Below are positions 139 to 34,815 of a DNA stretch of 34,815 bases, in pieces. The position numbers were made by a program, and so were the translations under genes. The notes under the pieces are model-generated. The model was not told where the DNA came from. It worked only from the letters and a program-made list of their open reading frames with translations, and did not search any database. Numbering within the stretch: the stretch's first letter is position 1; each line of letters starts with the position of its first letter. Origin of the DNA: a virus (lineage: Duplodnaviria; Caudoviricetes); IMG/VR virus record IMGVR_UViG_3300009095_000040, positions 1-34,815 of that record; one strand, written 5' to 3'.

Positions 139-193
139 CTCCTGTGGTTCGCGTCCGTGCACACACACTCACGCCCGGGTGGCCCGCAGTCCA
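139..193 (-). promoter_or_regulatory. Early-type cassette: TGGACT-N17-GAGTGT promoter, ACGGACGC motif, CCACAGGAG SD
   Basis: -35 at 188-193, -10 at 165-170, motif at 151-158, SD at about 139-147; same layout as the copies at 29.2, 29.9 and 32.2 kb. Confidence 0.75.
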
Positions 194-24469: not shown

Positions 24470-24777
24470 CTTCCCCCCTTGGTCTTGTAGATGCGCTTGC
24501 CTTTGGCCTCGAGTTCCTTGATCCGGTTGGTCTTGTTGCCCCGGCCGTGGATGGTATCGCGAGGCTTCTTGCGCGGCTCGACCGTGACGACTGTTCTCGA
24601 CTTGTGGTCGTACACGACGTGGATGCCGTTCAGGGTCAGCTTGTAAGTGACCGCCGGCCAACGTTCGAAATCGCCGCGCCGCGAGAGTTGCGCCTCGATG
24701 ACTTCAAGAGCCTGCTGCTGGGTGATGCCGCGTTCGGCACAACGCTCGAGCGCGTGGTACGAAAAGGTGACGTTCAT
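24466..24777 (-). CDS. DUF4258/RelE-like (BECR-fold) putative RNase with basic tail (103 aa)
   Basis: Start MNVTFSYHALERCAERGI at 24777 (ATGA overlap); HA..R..ERGI...IHVVYD....TVVTV pattern. Confidence 0.65.
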   Translation of the reverse strand: MNVTFSYHALERCAERGITQQQALEVIEAQLSRRGDFERWPAVTYKLTLNGIHVVYDHKSRTVVTVEPRKKPRDTIHGRGNKTNRIKELEAKGKRIYKTKGGR

Positions 24778-25163
24778 GCCGTCACCTCGAGAGTGCCGCC
24801 GGATACGAGGTTGCGGAACTGGCGCGCGTGCATCGTGCGCGTCCGCTTCCAGCGCTTGTACTTGTACTCGATGAAGTACCCGGTGACACCGACAACTTCG
24901 ATGGCGTCGCCGCCTTTGGTTCTCCACTCCTGCCCCGCCTCGAACTCGCCCGTGCGAGGTTCGCCGGCGTACTCGATCCTGATGCCGGCATCACAGACGC
25001 CAGTGGTCAGGTAGCGAACCAGCTCAGACAGGGCCCGCTCTTTCTTGGTGTCCGTGGTCCGCAACGTCCCGAGCCCGGGGCTTTCCCATTGGGTCAGGTA
25101 CAGCCGGTCAAAGCTGACCGTGTAGCCGTGCACGTCGATGATACGCTCGTACTCGCTGTCCAT
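24774..25163 (-). CDS. Hypothetical protein (129 aa) with SH3-like C-terminal domain
   Basis: ATG at 25163 after ACAACAGGAG SD; FEAGQEWRTKGG.AIEVVGV pattern. Confidence 0.7.
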   Translation of the reverse strand: MDSEYERIIDVHGYTVSFDRLYLTQWESPGLGTLRTTDTKKERALSELVRYLTTGVCDAGIRIEYAGEPRTGEFEAGQEWRTKGGDAIEVVGVTGYFIEYKYKRWKRTRTMHARQFRNLVSGGTLEVTA

Positions 25164-25169
25164 GACGAT

Positions 25170-25201
25170 CTCCTGTTGTGCGGGCCGCCCCACGCGTCCG
25201 T
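25170..25201 (-). promoter_or_regulatory. Leader motif ACGGACGC plus ACAGGAG SD (no promoter seen)
   Basis: Motif at 25194-25201 directly after the TerS stop codon. Confidence 0.55.
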
Positions 25202-25666
25202 TTAGGCGCCGGCCTTGGCTGCGAGCCGCCGGCGTGCTTCATCGCGAAGGTCGAGAAGCTCCGACACGCTGAGCCCCTCGAAGTCCTGTCGCGTTACTGT
25301 CGTCTGCTGCTGAATCGGACCACCTTCCGGCCCCGAGTGCTCGAGCGCGACCTTGCGCCCGAACGTCTGCGGGTCAGTCCGCTCGAGCCACCAAGCATGA
25401 GCCTGCCATGCCTGCGCGTTCGTGATTCGCCGGATGCTGAGCATCTTGCGCGTCGCGAGCGCCTTTTCTATGGCTGCGCGAAAAGCCGGGTCGCGGTTGG
25501 CTGCCGATCTGACACCCGACTCGCTGATTCCGATGTAGGCGCAAGCTGTGGCGATGAAGCCCGAGACTGTCAGCGCCCCGATGAACTCTGCCTTCTTCGC
25601 GTCCGTGAACACGCTGTTTGCGCCGGTTGGACGTCCGCGCTTACGTTTTGGCTTTGGGCTTCCCAT
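25202..25666 (-). CDS. terS: Terminase small subunit (154 aa)
   Basis: N-terminal GRPT, HTH (IATACAYIGIS), WQAHAWWLER...FGRK and LEHSGPEGGPI motifs; upstream of terL. Confidence 0.85.
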   Translation of the reverse strand: MGSPKPKRKRGRPTGANSVFTDAKKAEFIGALTVSGFIATACAYIGISESGVRSAANRDPAFRAAIEKALATRKMLSIRRITNAQAWQAHAWWLERTDPQTFGRKVALEHSGPEGGPIQQQTTVTRQDFEGLSVSELLDLRDEARRRLAAKAGA

Positions 25667-26306
25667 TGCCTTTTTGCTCCTTGTACCAGAGGGGTACGAA
25701 CCTGAGCTTCTCAGTGGTCATTGCGTGCAATCTGTCATCGAATTTCGTGTTGATCTCGATGATGGTTGGCGCGACGACTACCGTACCCGTCCGGCAGCAT
25801 ATCAGATTGTGCGTGACCGTGTCCAACAGGCAATCCGCCGGCGGGGTTCCGAGGGGCTTGGGAACCCTGAACTTTCTCGGCAAGTAGGCGAGCTTCGCCT
25901 GATGCGCGCTGAGGTGCCCGGCCTTCACCGCTTCTATGATTCGCTTTCTCGCCGTGGCGTGCGCGATGCGGTACTTCGCCATGATCTCAACGCAGCCTAG
26001 CCCGTTCTCGACGTCGTTGGCTATCCTGAGCGGGGTTGACTTCACCGACACCATGGCCATTTCCTCCGGCTTCATGACTCCGGTCGCGATGGCCTCGTGG
26101 CGCCAGTGGTACAGGGTGGTCCTTTCGATATCGGCATCCCTCGCCGCGTTGACGACTGACTGAGGGTAGTTCTTGAACAGCCGGCCAACGAGCCGCATGA
26201 ACTCGCGCCGCTGATCGGCGTTCTCGAACTTTCGCCTGACCCCGCATTGCTTCCGAGGCCAGTCGCGGATGCGCCGAATCGCCCGCTCCCCTTCCGTCTC
26301 TTTCAC
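25641..26306 (-). CDS. Basic HTH-type DNA-binding protein (221 aa)
   Basis: GTG at 26306 (GTGA overlap, GGGAGG SD); SVVNAARDADIERTTLYHW and EIMAKYRIAHATARK HTH-like segments. Confidence 0.65.
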   Translation of the reverse strand: MKETEGERAIRRIRDWPRKQCGVRRKFENADQRREFMRLVGRLFKNYPQSVVNAARDADIERTTLYHWRHEAIATGVMKPEEMAMVSVKSTPLRIANDVENGLGCVEIMAKYRIAHATARKRIIEAVKAGHLSAHQAKLAYLPRKFRVPKPLGTPPADCLLDTVTHNLICCRTGTVVVAPTIIEINTKFDDRLHAMTTEKLRFVPLWYKEQKGNGKPKAKT

Positions 26307-26818
26307 GATTGCGCCTCCCCGTTTGCCGGCGTCATGGCTTCGACGCGGGCGCGCTCGGCGTCCCGGCCCGGTATTTTGATCCCGGCCTTTCTGGCGAGCT
26401 TGACAACGTGCCCGACGGCGCTTTTGGAGCACTTGAGACGCTCTGCGATGGCCCGGTAGGTATCCGAGGTGTTAAGCAGCTCCGCGAGGATCGCGAGCGT
26501 CCGATTGTTGGGCTTCCCGCCGGCCGGCATCCGGTAGTTCTCGCGGACGATTGCCAGCTCAACAACCCGGGGGCTGACCCCGAACTCCTTGCAGGCTTCC
26601 GAGTGAGTGTGCCCGCGGTCGATGAACTCGACGATCGCTTGGCTCTGCCGGCGTTTCTTCTCGTGCCCGACGATGAGCCCGTTCTCGATGCAGGCGGCGT
26701 GAACTCGGCTGTACGATACCCTGAAATGCACCCCGGCCTCGGCGATGGTGCAGCCCGTTTTCCGAACGTAGTCGGCTATCTTCTTGCGCTCGTCGCGCAT
26801 TTCCGCGTGCGTTGCCAT
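26303..26818 (-). CDS. Triple-HTH DNA-binding protein (171 aa)
   Basis: TIAEAGVHFRVSYSRV, THSEACKEFGVSPRVV, TYRAIAERLKCSKSAV. Confidence 0.8.
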   Translation of the reverse strand: MATHAEMRDERKKIADYVRKTGCTIAEAGVHFRVSYSRVHAACIENGLIVGHEKKRRQSQAIVEFIDRGHTHSEACKEFGVSPRVVELAIVRENYRMPAGGKPNNRTLAILAELLNTSDTYRAIAERLKCSKSAVGHVVKLARKAGIKIPGRDAERARVEAMTPANGEAQS

Positions 26819-26820
26819 GA

Positions 26821-27357
26821 CTAGCTCCCCTTGGGTCGTGCTGCGTGGTAGGTGGGAATGGTTCGGACGTAGTACAGCATGTCCTCGATCTCGTCTTCCG
26901 TGAATTGGTGGTTCCGGGCTTCTGGCTCCTTTGACCCGTCGGTGAAGTCGCGGTCGAGCCCGATCTCAAACACGACGTGGCCATGGCTCGGCTTGTACCC
27001 GTACTCGAGCCATCCGAACTGGCCAACAAAGCTGCCGTAATCCTTGATGAAGGGGCGCCTTGCGCGAAGGTTCTTCAGGCCGTGGGCGATATCGTCGGCC
27101 GCGGCGTCGATGACGCGGTCGCGCTCGCCGAAACAGGCGTCGTAGTTCCCGTAGACCGCGATGAACCGCCGCGCCCGGTTGATGCGCTCGACGTCAAGCC
27201 CCGCGAGTAGCGCCGCCCTTTCGTGGAACAAGCGCTTCCGCTCGGCATAGAGCTCGATCTTCCGCCTTGTGTGCCGGCGCACTTCTTCGTTGACCGCCTC
27301 GAGGATTTCAGTGATCTGGACCTCTAAACTGGCAAGACTGACCTGTCGCTTTTCCAT
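26821..27357 (-). CDS. Hypothetical protein (178 aa)
   Basis: Start MEKRQVSL at 27357; N-terminal coiled coil, aromatic-rich C-terminus (KDYGSF...YGYKPSHGHVVFEIGL). Confidence 0.7.
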   Translation of the reverse strand: MEKRQVSLASLEVQITEILEAVNEEVRRHTRRKIELYAERKRLFHERAALLAGLDVERINRARRFIAVYGNYDACFGERDRVIDAAADDIAHGLKNLRARRPFIKDYGSFVGQFGWLEYGYKPSHGHVVFEIGLDRDFTDGSKEPEARNHQFTEDEIEDMLYYVRTIPTYHAARPKGS

Positions 27358-27413
27358 GGCTAATCTTTCCGTTGACGAAACAAGGCAGTTGGGGCGTGCT
27401 CGCCCCGCGTGCT

Positions 27414-28196
27414 TCATGCCGTCATGACTACGAGACAGGTGTTGACGTTCGTGCCGGAGCTCGAGAACGAGCCGGCCGGCAAGTCTTCGATGTAGCCGCA
27501 CGACTCGATTCGCTCGCGCAGCTCGCGGTACTTCCGGTCATTCCTGAACTTGATGCTCGAGGGCATCACCGCGACAAGCTTGCCACCCGGGAAAAGCCGG
27601 TCGTATGCCGCCGACACATGCTCGCAGGCGAGACGGAACGGCGGATTCATGATCACCTTGTGCACATTCTGCTCCGGTGCCGCGGCGAGCCAGCTCTCGA
27701 ACGTCATCACCGCGCAGTTGATCATCAGGCGCAGGATGCGCGCCGCGTTCACCTCGTTCGGCTCGACGACAATCAGGTCGCCGAGGTTGAAGCCGAGGTC
27801 GCGGGCTCTGGCCTTGATCGCGATGGCCAGCGCGCCGCGGCCGGCGGACGGTTCAAGAACGAAGTCGCCGGCGGTCAGGGACGCAAGTGTGACCATCTTC
27901 TCGGCTACATCCGGCGGCGTCTCGTAGAACTCGATCAGCTTCTTCTCGTTCGTGTACTGGCCCGTGTTGATGATGTTGTCGATGCGGTCGCGCAGCTCGG
28001 TAGGCGTGAGGTCGAATAGGTGCGCCTGCACCTTCCCGCCCTTCCACTTCCCGCCCATGGCGGTCAGCACGTCGTTGAGCTGCTTGTACTCCGAGCGGTC
28101 GAGCTGGCGGTCGTACTTCAACAGCCGGCTCCCTTCTTGCGTCATGCTCGAGAGGATCGCGAGCACGTTGTCTGGGACTTGCTTTGTCGCCTGCAT
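27414..28196 (-). CDS. SAM-dependent amino-methyltransferase, probably DNA N6-adenine (260 aa)
   Basis: FYETP, motif I VLEPSAGRGALA, motif IV IMNPPF, F..SGTNVNT; CAGGAG SD. Confidence 0.88.
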   Translation of the reverse strand: MQATKQVPDNVLAILSSMTQEGSRLLKYDRQLDRSEYKQLNDVLTAMGGKWKGGKVQAHLFDLTPTELRDRIDNIINTGQYTNEKKLIEFYETPPDVAEKMVTLASLTAGDFVLEPSAGRGALAIAIKARARDLGFNLGDLIVVEPNEVNAARILRLMINCAVMTFESWLAAAPEQNVHKVIMNPPFRLACEHVSAAYDRLFPGGKLVAVMPSSIKFRNDRKYRELRERIESCGYIEDLPAGSFSSSGTNVNTCLVVMTA

Positions 28197-28228
28197 GCCT
28201 TTTCTCCTGTGTTGGTCAATCTGCCGGT

Positions 28229-29152
28229 TTACATCACGCCGGCGCCGTGAAGGTACTTGATCATCGACTGGCGCTCCGCCTCGTACAGCGTTGCAACCAG
28301 CTTGGCGACCCGGAGCGCAACCTCGCGGTGGCCCTTGCTGCCCTTGCAGAGCGTCTCGAGCGCCGCGTCGAAATTGCCGGCCTCGACAAGCGCCCGAGCG
28401 GCGTCGTACTGCACTTGAAAGCCGCCGGTTGCCTTCGTGGGCTTCTCCGGCTTGGGTGAAGGTGTCGGCGCCGGCTCGCCTTGTGCCGCGACCTTCGTAG
28501 CGGGCTGCTTTTCGGGAGCCGGAAGTCGGACCATCCTGCAGCGCTGGTCGGTGGTCGCGACGAAATGAGCATCGTCGCGCCGCTCGATTTCAACAAACTC
28601 CTTGCCGTTGTGGCGGAACGTTTTCCAGACGACGAGCCGGCCCTTGCACGACTTGCAGTGTCGCGTCAGGAACCTCGAGCTGCCGTCGGTCGAGCGCTGG
28701 ACTACGCGCTGCGTGAGCGTGAAGTCCTTCCCGCAGCCGCATACTACCTTGTGAGCAAGCTGGCCCTTCGGCATCGCGTTGAGGGTGTCGTAGGTGTGGA
28801 ACCTTTCGGGCGCCTTCCCGAACGCGCGCATGACGCCCTTCCAGAGCGGCCCGTGCCCGCACTGCTTGCGGTACTTGTGGTTGGCGACGATATGCGCGAC
28901 CTCGTGCGGCACAGTCTGCGTGATGGCGTCTTCGAAGTTTTCGCCGCAGAGCACCGGGTTGAAGTTGAGCTCGAACAGCCCGAGCTGGATGAGCGTCGTT
29001 GCGGTCGCTGCAGCTCTGCCCTTCTTGGTGAACTTGATCTTGACTGTCCCGACGGGAATCTTCCTGTCCGGGGGAAGCAGCTCGTCGTTGGCAATGGCGA
29101 GATAGCGGCGGCACTCGCTGGTAATCTTTTCCATCTGTTCAAGCGTAAGCAC
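28229..29152 (-). CDS. SprT-like zinc metalloprotease with Zn ribbon and C-terminal extension (307 aa)
   Basis: TVPHEVAH...HGPLWKGVMRAFG; CGC and CKSC pairs; GTG start at 29152 after CCACAGGAG. Confidence 0.9.
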   Translation of the reverse strand: MLTLEQMEKITSECRRYLAIANDELLPPDRKIPVGTVKIKFTKKGRAAATATTLIQLGLFELNFNPVLCGENFEDAITQTVPHEVAHIVANHKYRKQCGHGPLWKGVMRAFGKAPERFHTYDTLNAMPKGQLAHKVVCGCGKDFTLTQRVVQRSTDGSSRFLTRHCKSCKGRLVVWKTFRHNGKEFVEIERRDDAHFVATTDQRCRMVRLPAPEKQPATKVAAQGEPAPTPSPKPEKPTKATGGFQVQYDAARALVEAGNFDAALETLCKGSKGHREVALRVAKLVATLYEAERQSMIKYLHGAGVM

Positions 29153-29158
29153 TGGCCT

Positions 29159-29250
29159 CTCCTGTGGTTGTGTGAGCCGGGCGTCCGTTCCCGACTCGCA
29201 CACACTCTATGGCGGATTTCTCGCTGTCCAATCATTTCCCGGTTTTTTAT
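29159..29250 (-). promoter_or_regulatory. Early cassette: A-tract, TGGACA-N17-GAGTGT, hairpin GAGTCGGG-AACGGACG-CCCGGCTC, SD
   Basis: -35 at 29225-29230, -10 at 29202-29207, hairpin at 29174-29197. Confidence 0.78.
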
Positions 29251-29501
29251 TTGAGTCTGGCCCCTACTGCGATGGCGCGGGCGGTGGCGGCCGGCGTCTT
29301 CGCCTTTTTGCCGGCGTGCTCGAGGCGCAGGACGATGTGATCGAGCTCGTTCGTCTGCTCGCTGTCGAGACGATGGAGCCGGTAGCCGTGCTCCTCGGCG
29401 ATGAACTTCGCGTTCTGCCAGATCGCGGGGCTGCTCCACAAGTCTTCAGCTACAACGCCTCGGAACTCGATCTTGGCTTCGTACTGCAGGTGCTCGTTCA
29501 T
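29247..29501 (-). CDS. Hypothetical protein (84 aa)
   Basis: AACCACAGGAG SD; fills the gap between neighbouring genes. Confidence 0.75.
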   Translation of the reverse strand: MNEHLQYEAKIEFRGVVAEDLWSSPAIWQNAKFIAEEHGYRLHRLDSEQTNELDHIVLRLEHAGKKAKTPAATARAIAVGARLK

Positions 29502-29519
29502 GACTTCTCCTGTGGTTGC

Positions 29520-29867
29520 CTAGCACTCGTACTTGACACCATCGACGGTGATGGTTCTCGGCTTGCGTGAGTACAGCGCGTTTGGGTTGAACTTCTCGAG
29601 CATCCCGAGCCGCGCCATGAGCTCGAGCCACCGCTTGCGGCGCGCGCCGCTTCCTTGAATCCAATCGGTATCGACGATCATGGTCAGCTCTTGGTCAAGT
29701 GCATCCCGTTGCGCCGGCGTGAGTTCATCGTGCCGGCCATCTAGCAAAAGGTCGATGGCCGTGACCGCGTCCCGCTTTTCTTCTTCCGACCAGTCGTCAT
29801 TGTCTTCGATCATTTCTCGGCGGTACCCGAGCTCCTCTGCTACTTCGAAGTGAATCTCAATCTTCAT
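29520..29867 (-). CDS. Hypothetical acidic protein (115 aa)
   Basis: Follows the conserved promoter/leader cassette. Confidence 0.8.
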   Translation of the reverse strand: MKIEIHFEVAEELGYRREMIEDNDDWSEEEKRDAVTAIDLLLDGRHDELTPAQRDALDQELTMIVDTDWIQGSGARRKRWLELMARLGMLEKFNPNALYSRKPRTITVDGVKYEC

Positions 29868-29873
29868 GGCTGG

Positions 29874-29972
29874 CCCCTGTGGTTGGCGGGCGTCCGTCCC
29901 GCGATGAACTCACTCTCACCCGCACCGGCCGGGCAGTCGAATCAAAACCCCCTTTTTTGTGAGGTATTTTTT
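29874..29972 (-). promoter_or_regulatory. Early cassette: A-tracts, TCGACT-N17-GAGAGT, hairpin GCGGG-ACGGACG-CCCGC, SD
   Basis: -35 at 29935-29940, -10 at 29912-29917, hairpin at 29886-29902. Confidence 0.78.
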
Positions 29973-30077
29973 CGGCTGCGTGGTTGCCTTTATAGGCTTC
30001 TTGAAGCCTCTCGGTGGTAGTTCGGGTAGCTCTGGTTGCGGCCGTGGCGCCCGGCGGGGCGTGGTGCGGCGTGGCGC

Positions 30078-30476
30078 CTATTCCGGCGGCGTCCAGTCGG
30101 CCCGATTGCCCCGTTTGAGGTGGTTCTCGACAATGGCAGGTGTCCCGAACGTCGAGCCCGGAAGGTGGCGGGTGATGTAGGCGACGACTGCCTGCAGGTA
30201 GAACGCGTCATCCCGGCCGGCGACTCGCAGCGCCGCGTGGACGTCGTTCTCGAGCACGCGAAGCAGGAACTCGCCCGGGGCGACCCGCTCGCGCACATAC
30301 TTCTCGAGCTGGTGGCGGTGTTCGTAGGGGCAGTCTCTGTCTGTCTGCCGGCCGGGCCATTTTGCTTGCGCGTACAACCGTAGGACGTGGAAGTCCTCGC
30401 GCGTGATTCTGACCTCCCCGCCATCTTCAACTGCCGATTGCAGGATCGCCGCGAGCGCGTCATTGCTGGTCGCCAT
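30078..30476 (-). CDS. Hypothetical phage protein (132 aa)
   Basis: AAGGA SD; PGEFLLRVLEND...P...FGT...V pattern recalls a common small phage family. Confidence 0.75.
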   Translation of the reverse strand: MATSNDALAAILQSAVEDGGEVRITREDFHVLRLYAQAKWPGRQTDRDCPYEHRHQLEKYVRERVAPGEFLLRVLENDVHAALRVAGRDDAFYLQAVVAYITRHLPGSTFGTPAIVENHLKRGNRADWTPPE

Positions 30477-30726
30477 CTTCTATCCTTTCGCAGATTACGA
30501 TGCGGTGTCCATCCACAAGCAGCTGCAGGTGGACGTCGAGTTCCCGCGTCGGGAATGAGCACTTCTTGGTTCCGGCCGGCGTTTCACCGAGCTCGAGCCG
30601 GCACGCGTGCGCGACCGTGACAGCGTCGGCGGCGTAGCACTCGTAGCGGTCGCCGATCTGGAACAGCAGCAGCGCGCCGTCGTACTTATCCTTCGCCTCG
30701 AGCCATGATCGGAGCGGCTCGCTCAT
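30460..30726 (-). CDS. Stand-alone MutS domain I (mismatch-binding-like) protein (88 aa)
   Basis: KDKYDGALLLFQIGDRYECYAADAVTVA...CSFP...L..LLVDGHRIVICE aligns by eye with the MutS N-terminus (LLFYRMGDFYE...DA...G.P...L..GESVAICE). Confidence 0.85.
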   Translation of the reverse strand: MSEPLRSWLEAKDKYDGALLLFQIGDRYECYAADAVTVAHACRLELGETPAGTKKCSFPTRELDVHLQLLVDGHRIVICERIEDGDQQ

Positions 30727-31115
30727 GACGCACCGACCTTACTGGATGGGAACGCTCCGCCAACCCATGCGTCGAGCCGGTACCTGTGCGGCTCGGCCAA
30801 CCACCGCATTTCGTCGAACTCGCTCCGGTCGCAGACCCGTTGAATCCAGTGGCCAAGCCTGACTAGGTCGCTGTGATTGAACACGCTGGGCATCGCCGGC
30901 GGCGGCTCAAGTTGAGTTTCGCGAACCGTGACCTCGTCGCCGATCAGGTCGTGCCCGGTGTCGCCGGCGTTGCTCGCGCCAACAAGCACGCAGTAGAACG
31001 TCTCGAACTCGTCATCATCGTCGACTGAGACAATCTGGCCCCGGAACTTCTCTCCGTGGTGATCGGCGCCAAGGTAGGTGACGACTACCGCGTCGCGCCT
31101 GCTGTACTTCGCCAT
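30723..31115 (-). CDS. Hypothetical protein (130 aa), possible SH3-like N-terminus
   Basis: Start MAKYSRRD at 31115 after AAGGAG; ATGA overlap with the next gene. Confidence 0.72.
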   Translation of the reverse strand: MAKYSRRDAVVVTYLGADHHGEKFRGQIVSVDDDDEFETFYCVLVGASNAGDTGHDLIGDEVTVRETQLEPPPAMPSVFNHSDLVRLGHWIQRVCDRSEFDEMRWLAEPHRYRLDAWVGGAFPSSKVGAS

Positions 31116-31117
31116 GG

Positions 31118-31381
31118 CTACCGGCTCCTTTCGATCATGCTGCTCCACGCCCGGGCGAACATCAGGTCGAGCGCCCCGTCGCTGCTGTCGCGGATTCCCG
31201 ACCAATCTCCGCCGCACGTCCCGAGCCCGCGGCCAAATCCATCGGCCAAGTCTTCGAAGCTGGTGCCGGATTCGAAAGCGGCCCTGATCAACATGAGCCT
31301 GAACTCGGCTCGGCACAACATGCCCCGGCTGTCGCGGTACTGCAGGCTTCCCGGGTTCTCGATCTTCACTTCGGAAATCAT
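31118..31381 (-). CDS. Hypothetical protein (87 aa)
   Basis: Start MISEVKIE at 31381 after CCACAGGAG and the ACGGACGC motif. Confidence 0.75.
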   Translation of the reverse strand: MISEVKIENPGSLQYRDSRGMLCRAEFRLMLIRAAFESGTSFEDLADGFGRGLGTCGGDWSGIRDSSDGALDLMFARAWSSMIERSR

Positions 31382-31387
31382 GGCTGG

Positions 31388-31410
31388 CTCCTGTGGTTGG
31401 TGGCGTCCGT
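31388..31410 (-). promoter_or_regulatory. Leader motif CACGGACGC plus CCACAGGAG SD (intercistronic)
   Basis: Motif at 31403-31410, 5 nt after the upstream stop codon. Confidence 0.65.
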
Positions 31411-31415
31411 GAGAG

Positions 31416-32147
31416 TTAGGCGTTCTGCGGCCCGCAAGCCTTGAGAGCCGCGTGGGCATCGCGCAGGGTGCCGAGAGTGCGGCCACCAACTCCGATCTTC
31501 CACTCGAGATCGTGGCGCACACCTTCCCAGCAGGCCGCTTCTTCGATCTGGTACATCCGCATTTCGCGGACAGCGCCGCGGGCAAGCTCGGTCGCCTTGC
31601 GCTCGAGCTGTTCGAACGTTTCGTCCCACGCCTGCAGCTTGCAGGCGGCTGCGAGTTCGCTCGTCGTTTCCATCAGCTCGGCAGCGCGGCGGTAGTAGTA
31701 GTCGACGAACGACTTCACGATGCCGGCCTGTCGGATTTCCCGGCCGCGAGCCGCGAGCCTTTCGGCGTTGGCGTATCCCGGGTTCTTGATGGCGTCGGCA
31801 AAGCTGTCGGTGGCGCCCTTGACGAGCCCGTCAATGTAGCGCTGAACCCTGTCCTCGATGTAGTCGACTTCCCACTGTGCCGCGCTCAGGATGTTCGCGA
31901 ACTTGGTGCGCGCCGGCGTGTTCTTGACGCCGGCGGCGTACTGCTCGAGAGCCGCGAGCGCTTCCTTCTGGGTGCCGGCTTCTTTCTTGTAGTTGTACGC
32001 GCCGATTTCGGCCCGCCACTTGCGCCCGTCGCTGGTGATGGTGGCGGGTACCCCGACCCCGACGTTGCCGAACATGCCGGCGGCGACATACTGCACGGTG
32101 CGGGTCTTGCCTTCGGTGGAAGCGCTGACTTTGGTAAGCGTAAGCAT
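31416..32147 (-). CDS. Hypothetical early protein (243 aa), beta N-terminus and helical C-terminus
   Basis: Start MLTLTKVS at 32147 after the conserved cassette. Confidence 0.8.
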   Translation of the reverse strand: MLTLTKVSASTEGKTRTVQYVAAGMFGNVGVGVPATITSDGRKWRAEIGAYNYKKEAGTQKEALAALEQYAAGVKNTPARTKFANILSAAQWEVDYIEDRVQRYIDGLVKGATDSFADAIKNPGYANAERLAARGREIRQAGIVKSFVDYYYRRAAELMETTSELAAACKLQAWDETFEQLERKATELARGAVREMRMYQIEEAACWEGVRHDLEWKIGVGGRTLGTLRDAHAALKACGPQNA

Positions 32148-32153
32148 GGCTGG

Positions 32154-32265
32154 CTCCTGTGGTTGTGTTGTTTGAGAGGCGTCCGTTCCCCTCGACGCAC
32201 AGACTCTCACCCACACCGGGCGGGCAGTCCAGTTTTTTCCGCCTAATTTTTCCGGTTTTTTTTTG
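32154..32265 (-). promoter_or_regulatory. Early cassette: three A-tracts, TGGACT-N17-GAGAGT, hairpin GAGGGG-AACGGACG-CCTCTC, SD
   Basis: -35 at 32226-32231, -10 at 32203-32208, hairpin at 32174-32193; plus-strand T-runs between 32233 and 32264. Confidence 0.8.
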
Positions 32266-32303
32266 CTGCCCGCGAGAGCGTAGAAGTGCGCTCTCCACGG
32301 CAA

Positions 32304-32891
32304 TCAGAACATTTTCGTCTGCGGCGGGGGCTCATTATCCGAGCCGCCGGCGGGGTGTTTGTTGTCCCACGAACGCCACACCGCCTCGGCCTCGGCCTTG
32401 AACTCAGTATGAGTAGGAGCCGGCTCGAGCTTGCTGCCCTCGTCGACGAAATGAGCGTAGCCGCGGCCCATCTTCTTCCCGCGGTGGGTGTGCTTGTCGA
32501 GCGCCTCGTCGGGAATCGGCGGGCGCACCTTCTTCTCGATATCGTCAATCACGACCGCGATGATTTCGTCGCCCGAACGGGACTTCTGCGCCTTGCACAG
32601 CGCAAGGACCGCGTTACTGACCCCGAGGCGCCATCCGTGGTTTTTCTTGGCGTAGAGTTCGGCCGCGAAGTTGATCGCTGACAGCGCGTGCTGGACCGCG
32701 ACCGGGTCGCCGATGCCGACGTCCTCGAAACAGATCACTTTGGTCCGCGTGACCATCGCTGCGAACCAGCCGGCGGTTTCCATTTCGAAAGCCCATCGAA
32801 GCGCGAGCCGCGGTTGATTGCGGCGGATCGCCTTCTGGAAAGCCGACTGCACTTCCCACACGTTGTAACCGGAAATCGTGGTGTCGCCCAT
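32304..32891 (-). CDS. Stand-alone RarA/MgsA C-terminal-like helical domain protein lacking the AAA+ ATPase (195 aa)
   Basis: SAFQKAIRR...ALRW...R..VICFEDVGIGDP...AVLALCKAQKSR...PIP matches the post-ATPase part of RarA (SA.HKS.RGS...EDVG.ADP...LA.APKSN); no Walker motifs. Confidence 0.8.
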   Translation of the reverse strand: MGDTTISGYNVWEVQSAFQKAIRRNQPRLALRWAFEMETAGWFAAMVTRTKVICFEDVGIGDPVAVQHALSAINFAAELYAKKNHGWRLGVSNAVLALCKAQKSRSGDEIIAVVIDDIEKKVRPPIPDEALDKHTHRGKKMGRGYAHFVDEGSKLEPAPTHTEFKAEAEAVWRSWDNKHPAGGSDNEPPPQTKMF

Positions 32892-32897
32892 GGGCTT

Positions 32898-32959
32898 CTC
32901 CTGTTGTTTGCGGTGATGCGTCCGTAACTCTCACTACCACGCCGGCGGGAGCGTGTAAA
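32898..32959 (-). promoter_or_regulatory. Variant cassette: TTTACA -35, TAGTGAGAGT -10 region, ACGGACGC, ACAGGAG SD
   Basis: TTTACA at 32954-32959; motif at 32918-32925. Confidence 0.55.
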
Positions 32960-32969
32960 GTCTTTCCTT

Positions 32970-33725
32970 CTAACGAGTTGAGGCGATATCCGAGCGGCGT
33001 TTGACGCGGATTGCCATGTTCAAGCTGCCGCGCTCCTTCGCCTTGTCTACGCTGAGGTACTGGCCCCATTTCTTGCGAAGCAGTGCCGTGCAAGCCTCGT
33101 TGGTGGCGCCCGTGCGGATTCCTTGATTGCCGCCCTTGCCAGTGAACACCGCCCCGAAGTCGAAATAGAAGCGCCGATCGCATAGCGTGATGCGCTCGTT
33201 TAGCAAACTCTGCATGGTGAGGTCGATATCCTCGCCCCGCTCGAGGCGCGCGTCGAACCTGACCGTGCGGCCGATGACGCCGAAGGCGCCGGCCGACGGG
33301 ATCACGAGCCCGAGCGGGTCACCTGTGTTCAAGTACATCGGGTTCGGGTTGCGCTGCCAGCAGAACACTGCGAGCTCGAGGTCGCGCGCAACGTTCCACG
33401 CGTTGCGGATGATGCGGTCGATTGCGTCGGACTCTGTGATGCGTCGAACCTTGCGGCCAACCAAGCAGTTCACGCCGCTGAGGTCATCGTCGATCATGCA
33501 GACGTCGCCTTCGATGTTGTCGAGAATCCAGTTGCGGATGTGGGCGATGTTCTTGAGCGGCGGATGTAGCGCGAGCTTGGCGCCAGTGCCGGCGATGGCC
33601 TTCGCGTACTGGTCCCGCTCCGACTCGTCTACGCAGATTGTGGCCGTCGGCAGCAGCGAAAGAAGCCGCTCCATGTTGCCGGCTCGCGCCCTCGAGGGGA
33701 CTACGACTGTGAGGTCACTCGCCAT
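32970..33725 (-). CDS. GT-A fold glycosyltransferase, TAGT/GREB1-like (candidate DNA base glycosyltransferase, 251 aa)
   Basis: VVVPSRAR, IRNWILD, MIDDD (DxD), FD...GEDID..MQ.L, GGNQ..R, L..KWG motifs; paired with a ParB-like gene. Confidence 0.82.
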   Translation of the reverse strand: MASDLTVVVPSRARAGNMERLLSLLPTATICVDESERDQYAKAIAGTGAKLALHPPLKNIAHIRNWILDNIEGDVCMIDDDLSGVNCLVGRKVRRITESDAIDRIIRNAWNVARDLELAVFCWQRNPNPMYLNTGDPLGLVIPSAGAFGVIGRTVRFDARLERGEDIDLTMQSLLNERITLCDRRFYFDFGAVFTGKGGNQGIRTGATNEACTALLRKKWGQYLSVDKAKERGSLNMAIRVKRRSDIASTR

Positions 33726-34401
33726 TGATCACCGCTATCACCTTCTTCGCATCGACCGCGCGGCCGAGCCCGATCTTCCGCCGGCCGACAAGCGGCGACA
33801 CGTTGCGCTTCTCGATGCCGAACTTCTCGCAGAGCCACTCCCAATCCATCGTGTTGCGCGCGAGCACGACGATGTAATCGTAATGCTCGAAGGGCTGCAG
33901 CTCCATTTCGGGTGGACCGCCGGCGTCATTCTGCGCCAGGCCCGCACCGCCGGCGGCGTCGCCATCTTGCGCGGCGATTTCATCGAGCCGGAGCGACTCG
34001 TACAGGTCCGGCATTGCCGACTCGATCTCGGCGACGATCGCATCGACGTCCGCGGTGAAATGGCCTTGTATCCCGGGGTTGTTGGCTGTGAGGTTCGCGG
34101 CTCGCTCGGTGTCGGCGTCCCAATCGACGACACGAACCGGAAACTCGTCATCACCGTGGACGAACCGGGGCGGGTCCGTGAGGAACACCGCCCCTGATTC
34201 CTTGAGAACGTCTACCCGCTGGTGGCCTGCGACAAGGTGCCCCGTCCTGCTGTTCCAGACGATGCCCGAGAGGTCGCCGAACTCCTCGACCGACCGCGTC
34301 AGGCCATGCTTGGCTGCCGGGTCGATTTCTCGAGGATTGTACGGCGCCGGCTGCAGATCATCGGCCGACTTGAGCCGGCGGAGCTTCCCTTGCTTGGCCA
34401 T
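33715..34401 (-). CDS. ParB/Srx-like N-terminal domain protein with distinct C-terminal domain (228 aa)
   Basis: LQPAPYNPR, L.RSVEEFG....IVWN.RTGHLVAGHQR, E...NL..N motifs; 11-nt overlap with the glycosyltransferase gene. Confidence 0.88.
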   Translation of the reverse strand: MAKQGKLRRLKSADDLQPAPYNPREIDPAAKHGLTRSVEEFGDLSGIVWNSRTGHLVAGHQRVDVLKESGAVFLTDPPRFVHGDDEFPVRVVDWDADTERAANLTANNPGIQGHFTADVDAIVAEIESAMPDLYESLRLDEIAAQDGDAAGGAGLAQNDAGGPPEMELQPFEHYDYIVVLARNTMDWEWLCEKFGIEKRNVSPLVGRRKIGLGRAVDAKKVIAVINGE

Positions 34402-34404
34402 GGC

Positions 34405-34797
34405 TTACGCCTCCACTTCGACATTCTCGTCTTCGAACGCCATGTCCTTCTGCGAGTCGGCGAACTCGATGCCAACCGACTCCTCGATGGCCATGAACAG
34501 CGCCGTGAACTCGTCCGGCGTGAGCCTGCGCGCCGGCACGAACTGGTACTTGTGACTGCCGCTCTCGTCGCTCGCTTCGGCATACGACACCGACTCGAGC
34601 AGCTTGCCGTCGGCAGTCAGGCCGACCTTGCCGCCGATGGTGAGTGTAGCGAACCGCTCGCGGCGTGTCGCGGCCTTCTCGGTTTCGGACGTCAAATCCT
34701 CGTCCGCCTGCGAGAACTCGATCTTGATGCCGCTCGCCTTGTCGGTCTTCCGCTTGCCGGTGATCGCCTCGAAGATCCAGTTGACTGAGAACTTCAT
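34405..34797 (-). CDS. Hypothetical acidic protein (130 aa)
   Basis: AAGGA SD; 3 nt from the ParB-like start. Confidence 0.75.
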   Translation of the reverse strand: MKFSVNWIFEAITGKRKTDKASGIKIEFSQADEDLTSETEKAATRRERFATLTIGGKVGLTADGKLLESVSYAEASDESGSHKYQFVPARRLTPDEFTALFMAIEESVGIEFADSQKDMAFEDENVEVEA

Positions 34798-34815
34798 TGT
34801 AGCATCCTTTCTGAC

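What the first reader, a model, noticed from the sequence alone, without database searches (positions are those of the whole stretch)
25170..32925. Repeated 5'-leader hairpin with invariant ACGGACG loop next to the SD: candidate CsrA/Rsm-type translational regulon of phage early genes
Seen: ACGGACGC (plus strand gcgtccgt) lies just upstream of the SD of seven genes, at 151, 25194, 29181, 29890, 31403, 32179 and 32918. In three copies it is the loop of a clean hairpin whose stems differ in sequence but keep pairing: GAGUCGGG/CCCGGCUC, GCGGG/CCCGC and GAGGGG/CCUCUC. That pattern argues for RNA structure rather than a DNA operator. The other four stems are weak or imperfect. In six of seven copies a second GGA lies 14-27 nt downstream inside the SD (ACAGGAG). 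Established: CsrA/RsmA dimers bind ANGGA motifs, ideally in hairpin loops, and can bridge an upstream site and an SD-overlapping site to control translation; copies 151 and 31403 match CANGGANG exactly. Inference: the phage places its early genes (SprT, RarA-C, several unknowns) under a host or phage Csr-like protein, coupling them to host state. I did not see the motif in leaders of structural genes, and no csrA is in this window. Alternative: a boxB-like antitermination site.
Basis: partly seen in the sequence, partly recalled or inferred. Interest (0 to 1): 0.85.

Follow-up and report, generated by a model that had tools for sequence, protein, structure and literature searches.

The report
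Seven-base leader box, phage early genes
An uncultured phage and one relative both place the same seven-base word (CGGACGC) between a predicted promoter or stop codon and the ribosome-binding site of 7-8 mostly early genes; it is likely a docking site in the mRNA for a regulator that would tune these genes together, but the relative's copies fit the proposed host protein CsrA only in part.

Summary
ACGGACGC lies before the Shine-Dalgarno (SD) of seven genes (7 intergenic copies, 0.29 expected), three times in a hairpin loop. A related phage record (G001, 41-71% protein identity) keeps the word in 8 leaders while swapping most downstream genes, so it is under selection. There the conserved part is CGGACGC. 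The first A, which Csr/Rsm proteins cannot do without, is T or C in 5 of 8 copies, and a variant contig reads G at window 32925. Bases that CsrA ignores are invariant. Loop display is seen in 4 of 15 copies, and neither record encodes CsrA. Still for CsrA: invariant GGA, A preferred (10 of 15), 11-24 nt spacing to the SD, and an unrelated contig (L092) with covarying ACGGA-loop hairpins behind strong promoters. Best reading: a start-associated, single-stranded RNA box read by an unidentified sequence-specific factor (0.40). Rivals: Csr-type (0.27), DNA operator (0.18), cassette relic or initiation element (0.15). It is a new variant of the unexplained SAS/ESAS/PeSL-type leader cassettes. The host is unknown.

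The parts
32918..32925 (-). Leader box ACGGACGC before the MgsA_C (RarA C-terminal domain) gene; about +1 of the predicted promoter; first base reads G in a variant contig
32931..32959 (-). Promoter-like element TTTACA-N17-TAGTGA (predicted)
32898..32904 (-). SD ACAGGAG of gene 32304-32891
32304..32891 (-). Stand-alone MgsA_C protein, 195 aa; 56% identical to the G001 orthologue, which also lies in a box-led operon
32203..32231 (-). Promoter-like element TGGACT-N17-GAGAGT behind an A-tract (predicted)
32174..32193 (-). Hairpin GAGGGG/CCUCUC with loop AACGGACG (box at 32179-32186), before a 243-aa unknown gene (31416-32147)
31403..31410 (-). Intercistronic box 5 nt after a stop codon, no hairpin; matches CANGGAYG; before an 87-aa unknown gene (31118-31381)
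31379..31399 (-). 21-nt SD-to-start tail, identical at 32145-32165 and with one change at 29865-29885 (sign of cassette duplication)
29912..29940 (-). Promoter-like element TCGACT-N17-GAGAGT (predicted); 72% identical over 75 nt to the 32203 promoter region
29886..29902 (-). Hairpin GCGGG/CCCGC with loop ACGGACG (box at 29890-29897); SD ACAGGGG lacks GGA; before a 115-aa unknown gene (29520-29867)
29202..29230 (-). Promoter-like element TGGACA-N17-GAGTGT (predicted)
29174..29197 (-). 8-bp hairpin with loop AACGGACG (box at 29181-29188), before the SprT-like gene
28229..29152 (-). SprT-like metalloprotease gene, 307 aa, GTG start
26303..26818 (-). Protein with three predicted helix-turn-helix units, 171 aa, 41% identical in G001; candidate (untested) reader of the box; its own leader lacks the box
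25194..25201 (-). Intercistronic box directly after the small-terminase stop codon, followed by a separate hairpin; before a 129-aa unknown gene (24774-25163); G001 has a box at the same place
165..193 (-). Promoter-like element TGGACT-N17-GAGTGT after a terminator-like hairpin; boxes, leader word and SD kept in G001 while the spacer and the downstream gene differ
151..158 (-). Leader box at predicted +1; matches CANGGAYG only if the upstream C is transcribed; before a gene cut by the window edge (start 132)

Best explanation
CGGACGC is a conserved box in a repeated promoter-box-SD cassette of this phage group, and it is likely read in the mRNA, as a single strand, by one sequence-specific factor (probably not canonical CsrA) that would tune translation or stability of the early accessory, recombination and replication genes together. 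Shown: the box, its enrichment, its retention in G001, its link to promoter-like sites and its spacing to the SD. Inferred: start sites about 6 nt after the -10 box put it in the first ~15 nt of most transcripts, and bare A/C-rich linkers or G+C hairpins keep it exposed. A factor bound 25-38 nt before the start codon would sit at the upstream edge of the initiating ribosome, most simply damping these strongly promoted genes once it accumulates, as Aca2 does. Occluded copies (RecE leader) would respond weakly. The factor is unknown; candidates are the shared triple-HTH protein, a Com-like zinc ribbon seen only in G001, or a host protein or small RNA.
For: Intergenic enrichment: 7 vs 0.29 (window) and 9 vs 0.39 (G001; 8 leaders plus one copy inside an ORF left out of my gene list). 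Seven bases are fixed in 15 of 15 main copies while flanks and spacing vary. 10 of 10 intergenic promoter-like matches have GGAC 5-17 nt downstream; the 4 matches inside ORFs do not (the pattern was derived from these sites). At the promoter after the lysis genes, -35, -10, box and SD are kept while the spacer and the gene change. RNA level: one orientation only, G-U pairs in the stems, stems enclosing the box at P<0.05 in 3 of 15 copies (0.006, 0.036, 0.0025), and intercistronic copies without a promoter. Coding copies are not avoided (9 vs 11.0; 13 vs 9.5), which suits a context-dependent RNA site better than a 7-bp DNA operator. All five loops that touch the box share GACG, including the G001 variant loop AGACG where GGA is half paired. 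Precedent: Aca1/Aca2 motifs directly after the start site and about 20 nt before the start codon (PMC13551039, passages).
Against: No factor was identified or tested. The triple-HTH leader lacks the box and its fold search gave no match at E<=0.001. The Com-like ORF is weak (Pfam E 0.017, below cut-off; Atlas 0.93 with 144 shared features), has no window homologue, and Mu Com reads a different motif (PMC6483171). A is still preferred before the box (10 of 15, binomial P 8e-4), as CsrA would need. 11 of 15 copies have no predicted protective hairpin, and folding pairs several of them partly. In two G001 promoters the predicted start falls inside the box. Only two genomes carry the multi-copy box, so conservation rests on two genomes. 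Aca motifs are double-stranded hairpins, unlike this box.
Confidence: 0.4

Rival explanations
1. The box and the SD form a two-site target for a host Csr/Rsm protein (canonical, or a paralogue with relaxed specificity), which represses translation or shields 5' ends and ties early genes to host state.
For: GGA is invariant; 12 of 17 sites (15 main plus 2 promoter-linked variants, AGGAC and ACGGAC) fit A(N)GGAX, including 7 of 7 in the window, and 2 match CANGGAYG. The gap to the SD is 11-24 nt in 14 of 14 copies with an SD, within the 10-63 nt bridging range. Three window loops display GGA. In unrelated contig L092, 15 of 21 strong promoters start with AGGA or ACGGA (shuffled mean 4.2, max 11), and five ACGGA-loop stems covary (25 of 25 cells paired, 4 of 5 pairs changed on both sides). 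CsrA homologues differ in specificity (PMC12247646, passages).
Against: 5 of 8 main G001 copies lack the non-substitutable A (PMC4005645), and a variant contig has G at window 32925. N, X and the following GC are fixed though CsrA ignores them. One SD lacks GGA and one copy has no SD. The RecE copy is fully paired. No csrA was found in G000 or G001, whose overlapping gene maps seem to close a circle, though both are fragments. The host is unknown. AGGA in an SD is uninformative, and the A of ACAGGAG partly follows from CCWGG avoidance. L092 was found with this motif as query and is unrelated.
Confidence: 0.27
2. The box is a short asymmetric DNA operator or stoperator for a phage protein such as the shared triple-HTH protein. 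It would block initiation at -1 to +17 and elongation at intercistronic copies.
For: It overlaps or closely follows all 10 intergenic promoter-like sites. In 11 of 15 copies there is no hairpin. A three-HTH protein is shared by both phages in box-led operons. One G001 copy may straddle a start site. L5 stoperators are asymmetric and oriented (mentioned in PMC3203893, passage).
Against: Seven bases give little DNA specificity; 9 and 13 coding copies are tolerated at expected levels. There is no second half-site and no fixed phase to the promoter (5-17 nt, about 45 nt in one case). Loop display with G-U pairs has no use in duplex DNA. The HTH gene's own leader lacks the box.
Confidence: 0.18
3. 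The box has no trans-acting reader. It is a favourable start or escape sequence or ribosome-loading aid, copied around with PeSL-like promoter-SD cassettes by recombination.
For: In six promoters it lies 5-8 nt after the -10 box, where A or G fits a start purine (rule recalled), and the A-to-G allele keeps a purine. Three window leaders share a 21-nt tail and two promoters share 72% over 75 nt. G001 encodes RecE/RecT. Genes behind the cassette are swapped. PeSL cassettes do this in RB49/phi1 (PMC2839356, passages).
Against: Only the seven bases stay fixed while neighbours drift, across phages at 41-71% protein identity. Intercistronic copies keep all seven, and hairpins were built around it three times with different stems.
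Confidence: 0.15

Closest known systems
Start-associated sequences (SAS) and extended SAS of cluster K mycobacteriophages, and the cluster EC/EF motifs of Microbacterium phages (PMC3203893, PMC7302621; passages read)
   Same: Asymmetric, single-orientation repeats before mainly non-structural genes, with an over-conserved SD part plus an upstream element; kept while downstream genes change; function unknown. The cluster EC motif also lies 21-30 bp before the start codon, upstream of the RBS.
   Different: Unrelated sequence. The box is 7 nt, separate from the SD at variable distance, sometimes in a hairpin loop; ESAS are 17-bp inverted repeats.
CsrA/RsmE/RsmN target leaders (PMC4005645 abstract and passages; PMC7652899, PMC12247646, 10.1101/315341 passages)
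   Same: GGA upstream of an SD GGA, gap 11-24 nt, sometimes in a loop; 12 of 17 sites fit A(N)GGAX.
   Different: The required A varies while the free positions are fixed; no loop is an ANGGAX hexaloop on a C-G pair; no csrA was found in either record.
PeSL cassettes of phages RB49/phi1 (PMC2839356, passages)
   Same: Repeated AT-rich region, sigma70-like promoter, stem-loop and SD before swappable small genes.
   Different: PeSL stems are terminators with no fixed loop word; here a fixed word also occurs without a promoter or stem.
Aca1/Aca2 RNA motifs (PMC13551039, passages) and Mu Com (PMC6483171, passages)
   Same: Small phage proteins that bind RNA just after the start site or near the RBS of early or modification genes; multi-operon control is predicted for Aca.
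   Different: Aca motifs are paired hairpins with a promoter inverted repeat; Com reads CC(N)2-3GAG in a loop. Neither sequence matches, and no Aca or clear Com family hit was found.

Membership tests
Csr/Rsm target regulon | Invariant GGA core | tested here: met
   15 of 15 main copies
Csr/Rsm target regulon | A at the head of A(N)GGAX (non-substitutable, PMC4005645) | tested here: not met
   7 of 7 in the window assembly, but 3 of 8 main G001 copies; G allele at 32925
Csr/Rsm target regulon | N and X positions free to vary | tested here: not met
   N = C in 16 of 17, X = C in 17 of 17
Csr/Rsm target regulon | GGA exposed, ideally in an ANGGAX hexaloop | tested here: inconclusive
   Loop display predicted in 4 of 15 copies, loops of 7-8 nt; one copy fully paired
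Csr/Rsm target regulon | Second site over the SD, 10-63 nt away | tested here: met
   11-24 nt in 14 of 14 copies with an SD; one of these SDs lacks GGA, and AGGA in an SD is weak evidence
Csr/Rsm target regulon | A CsrA protein in phage or host | tested here: inconclusive
   None in G000 or G001 (both fragments); host not identified
Csr/Rsm target regulon | Binding and regulation shown | not testable with these tools
   Needs EMSA and reporters
SAS/ESAS-type start-associated elements | Asymmetric repeat in one orientation just before start codons | tested here: met
   7 and 8 leader copies, all on the coding strand, 13-38 nt before the start
SAS/ESAS-type start-associated elements | Mainly non-structural genes | tested here: met
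   No intergenic copy before window capsid, portal or tail genes; one G001 copy precedes a lysis-region gene
SAS/ESAS-type start-associated elements | Cluster K 13-bp SAS sequence over the RBS or 17-bp inverted repeats | tested here: not met
   Different sequence and layout; same kind, not the same family
PeSL cassette | Promoter, stem-loop and SD repeated before swappable ORFs | tested here: inconclusive
   Promoter and SD repeated, genes swapped; a stem in only some copies; terminator activity not tested
Aca-type HTH RNA/DNA control | Conserved inverted repeat over the promoter plus a conserved paired RNA hairpin | tested here: not met
   The ten promoter spacers share no conserved repeat by inspection; the box is single-stranded
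Rfam families (including boxB-like and Csr sRNAs) | Covariance-model match | tested here: not met
   0 at gathering score for the window; 0 at E<=1 for 24500-34815

The most novel reading that the evidence does not exclude
A phage that carries no csrA wires its early accessory, recombination (RecE, RecT) and replication-initiator genes to a host Csr-type protein with altered specificity (reading CGGACGC, tolerating U or C up front), so that lytic gene expression is gated by host metabolic state. L092 would be an independent second case using both canonical Csr forms, AGGA and ACGGA.
Probability: 0.27. Interest if true: 0.75.

Novelty: new variant of a known kind. Interest (0 to 1): 0.45.

Why it matters
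Start-associated repeats of phages were described in 2011, and the 2020 paper read here still lists their role as unclear. This one is short and comes in natural bare, loop-displayed and occluded forms with natural base changes, so a small mutation matrix can tell CsrA (needs GGA and the leading A) from a new reader (needs CGGACG/GACG) and RNA from DNA. A positive CsrA result would show a phage coupling its early programme to host state through a host translation regulator; a new reader would add an RNA-binding regulator family.

Tried and rejected
Host search failed: no portal relative in genome contigs; the 16 motif+SD hits there are single and taxonomically scattered; large terminase best 36% in cultured phages; G001 DnaB about 33% on plasmids; homologue searches gave almost no organism names. 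More family members: capsid, MgsA_C and portal scans of viral contigs gave only G001 or nothing. Of 49 viral records chosen from the 59 pattern loci and earlier hits, only G001 had more than 2 box+SD+ATG matches. Blastn of a cassette region found no cultured phage. A host-wide motif is not supported: counts were near control in 5 bacterial genomes (22/19, 12/16, 3/1, 8/8, 4/6) and at most 6 per genome in 61 genomes of one phylum. Antisense RNA: the complement GCGTCCG occurs on the coding strand only inside genes (2 per record); a host small RNA is not excluded. L092 relatives were not found, and 5 records had no csrA. No RNA holder listed. The triple-HTH model (pLDDT 77, pTM 0.38) gave no PDB match at E<=0.001. 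The Com-like ORF search found only 7 weak hits. Pairing to the 16S rRNA tail was considered from memory only and not computed. Print searches: CsrA + phage + GGA motif + early genes gave 0 papers; CGGACGC + phage + motif + promoter gave 111, and none of the 20 listed titles concerns such a motif (listing only). Supplements were not read; the Microbacterium S10 figure may hold related motifs.
Full report
Setting. The window is a 34.8-kb phage record (G000, rated 37% complete) whose identified genes all lie on the minus strand: a P22-type coat, portal and terminase, large unannotated genes that are probably tail genes, and an early region with a ParB-like protein, a glycosyltransferase, a stand-alone MgsA_C domain, SprT, a methyltransferase and two HTH proteins. 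The one run listed as holding it is labelled soil metagenome. The host was not identified.

Observation. The word is not over-represented overall (15 vs 12.0), but it is in intergenic DNA: 7 vs a mean of 0.29 and a maximum of 4 in 5000 shuffles, with the best shuffled 7-mer reaching 4 segments. The three hairpins fold as described; their stems against shuffled flanks give P = 0.006, 0.036 and 0.088, and the other four are unremarkable. Rfam has no match.

What was missed. Five copies follow a promoter-like element: a hexamer like TGGACT/TCGACT/TTTACA, 17 nt, then GAGAGT/GAGTGT/TAGTGA, usually behind an A-rich tract. The stock sigma-70 scan does not call these; they are my inference from repetition and fixed spacing. 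The box lies 6-17 nt behind the -10 hexamer. With the usual gap of about 6 nt to a purine start (recalled), two copies begin at about +1 and three sit in a 5'-terminal hairpin. The other two follow a stop codon. A second conserved piece is the SD with its A/C-rich lead-in, ACCACAGGAG, which also occurs without the box. The unit is therefore promoter, box, SD.

A relative. A pattern scan and a protein scan independently gave one relative, G001; 13 of its 50 tested proteins match the window at 41-71%, and it supplies the RecE/RecT, replication-initiator and DnaB region that the window lacks. It has 8 intergenic leader copies of CGGACGC (one search counts 9 vs 0.39; one lies in an ORF I had left out), before a lysis-region gene, RecE, RecT, the initiator, the MgsA_C operon and unknowns. 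A ninth copy lies in the last codons of an upstream ORF and was not counted. Two more promoters carry variants, ACGGACAC and AGGACC. All 10 intergenic promoter-like matches in the two records have GGAC within 5-17 nt; the 4 matches inside ORFs do not (pattern built from these sites). After the lysis genes the two phages keep -35, -10, box and SD but not the spacer or the gene. This is purifying selection on the box. It is family-specific: 1 of 49 viral records tested had more than two matches, and bacterial genomes were at control level.

Testing CsrA. PMC4005645 (abstract and passages) says the A, G, G, A of A(N)GGAX are read by the protein backbone and cannot be replaced, while N and X are free. 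Across 17 sites the base at that A position is A 11, T 5, C 1; N is C in 16; X is C in 17; the next two bases are G in 15 and C in 16. Twelve sites fit A(N)GGAX and five main G001 copies do not. One contig of run X1 (depth 6.4, 4 differences in 1162 nt) reads G for the A at 32925; this is a single contig and could be a strain or assembly difference. Only one G001 copy is loop-displayed, and its stem overlaps the predicted promoter, so it needs a read-through RNA; the RecE copy is fully paired (z -3.6); and the variant hairpin shows loop AGACG with GGA half in the stem. No csrA was found in either record. In favour of CsrA: GGA never varies; A is preferred (10 of 15, P 8e-4), although a start purine explains some of these; the gap to the SD is 11-24 nt in all 14 copies with an SD, against a published range of 10-63 nt (PMC7652899, passage); and homologues differ in specificity (PMC12247646, passages).

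An independent look-alike. Of 55 metagenome loci from the pattern scan, three were the window's own record; of the other 52, L092 stood out. It is an array of strong canonical promoters before small ORFs without PHROG hits (0 of 18), so its phage origin is inferred. 15 of 21 promoters start with AGGA or ACGGA (shuffled mean 4.2), and five hairpins keep loop ACGGA on covarying stems (structure chosen from these sequences). That fits Csr better than the window does, but there the CG after GGA is stem, not loop, and the contig is unrelated; it shows the design exists, not that this box is the same thing.

Mechanism. Shown: a selected 7-nt word at leader positions, linked to promoter-like sites and SDs. 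Inferred: it acts in RNA, because it has one orientation, variable spacing, G-U-containing stems built around it and no avoidance in coding DNA (9 vs 11.0 and 13 vs 9.5). A reader that needs all seven bases explains the conservation better than canonical CsrA. Bound 25-38 nt before the start codon, it would most simply damp translation of strongly promoted early genes, as Aca2 does (PMC13551039, passages). Candidates are thin: a triple-HTH protein shared by both phages, and a Com-like ORF behind a box in G001 only, whose Mu homologue reads another motif (PMC6483171, passages). I put this at 0.40, Csr-type at 0.27, DNA operator at 0.18 and a reader-less cassette or initiation element at 0.15; for the last, shared 21-nt tails and PeSL shuffling (PMC2839356, passages) show that duplication contributed.

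Relation to known systems. It works like the SAS/ESAS and cluster EC motifs (PMC3203893, PMC7302621, passages): oriented, start-associated, mainly non-structural genes, kept while genes change, function unknown. It is not a member by sequence. It fails two defining Csr features and two Aca features, so it is not filed under either. I found no description in print (listings; subscription journals are mostly missing). Earlier notes of this scan describe similar cassettes in other phages, which suggests the kind is common; these are unchecked leads.

Verdict.

Noticed in passing
L092:300-8050: Array of about 21 near-identical strong promoters before small unknown ORFs; 15 leaders begin with AGGA or ACGGA, five as ACGGA-loop hairpins with covarying stems. 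A better Csr-target candidate than the window; no relative found in viral contigs.
   Followed up: partly
L065:12860-13099 (G001): 79-aa ORF with two cysteine pairs, weakly Com-like (Pfam E 0.017), inserted between a box-led promoter and the MgsA_C gene; absent at the same place in the window.
   Followed up: partly
window 26303-26818 and 25641-26306: Two HTH proteins at the end of the early operon; the first has three HTH units, weak similarity to Cbp1 and SpoIIID, and a 41% orthologue in G001.
   Followed up: partly
whole window and G001: Strong site avoidance: CCWGG 1 vs 54 expected in the window and 0 vs 37 in G001; GGAGG 12 vs 38 in the window; many 6-bp palindromes absent in G001. Suggests host restriction pressure.
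   Followed up: no
window 32304-34401: ParB-like gene, TET-associated-type glycosyltransferase and stand-alone MgsA_C domain form a block conserved in G001 (56-71%); possibly a DNA-modification module.
   Followed up: no
L066:7255-7312 (G001 RecE leader): Long hairpin (z -3.6) directly after an extended -10-like site that buries the whole box; possible attenuated copy.
   Followed up: partly
L066:1400-1540 (G001 replication initiator leader): Two hairpins, then the box 13 nt before ATG with no other SD; the box's GGA may serve as a weak SD here.
   Followed up: no
window 30460-30726: Stand-alone MutS domain I protein (88 aa, Pfam E 3e-15) in the early region.
   Followed up: no
L081:2100-2200 and 2745-2790: Two leaders share GTTGACACGGAC, one behind a canonical promoter; possible further look-alike.
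   Followed up: no
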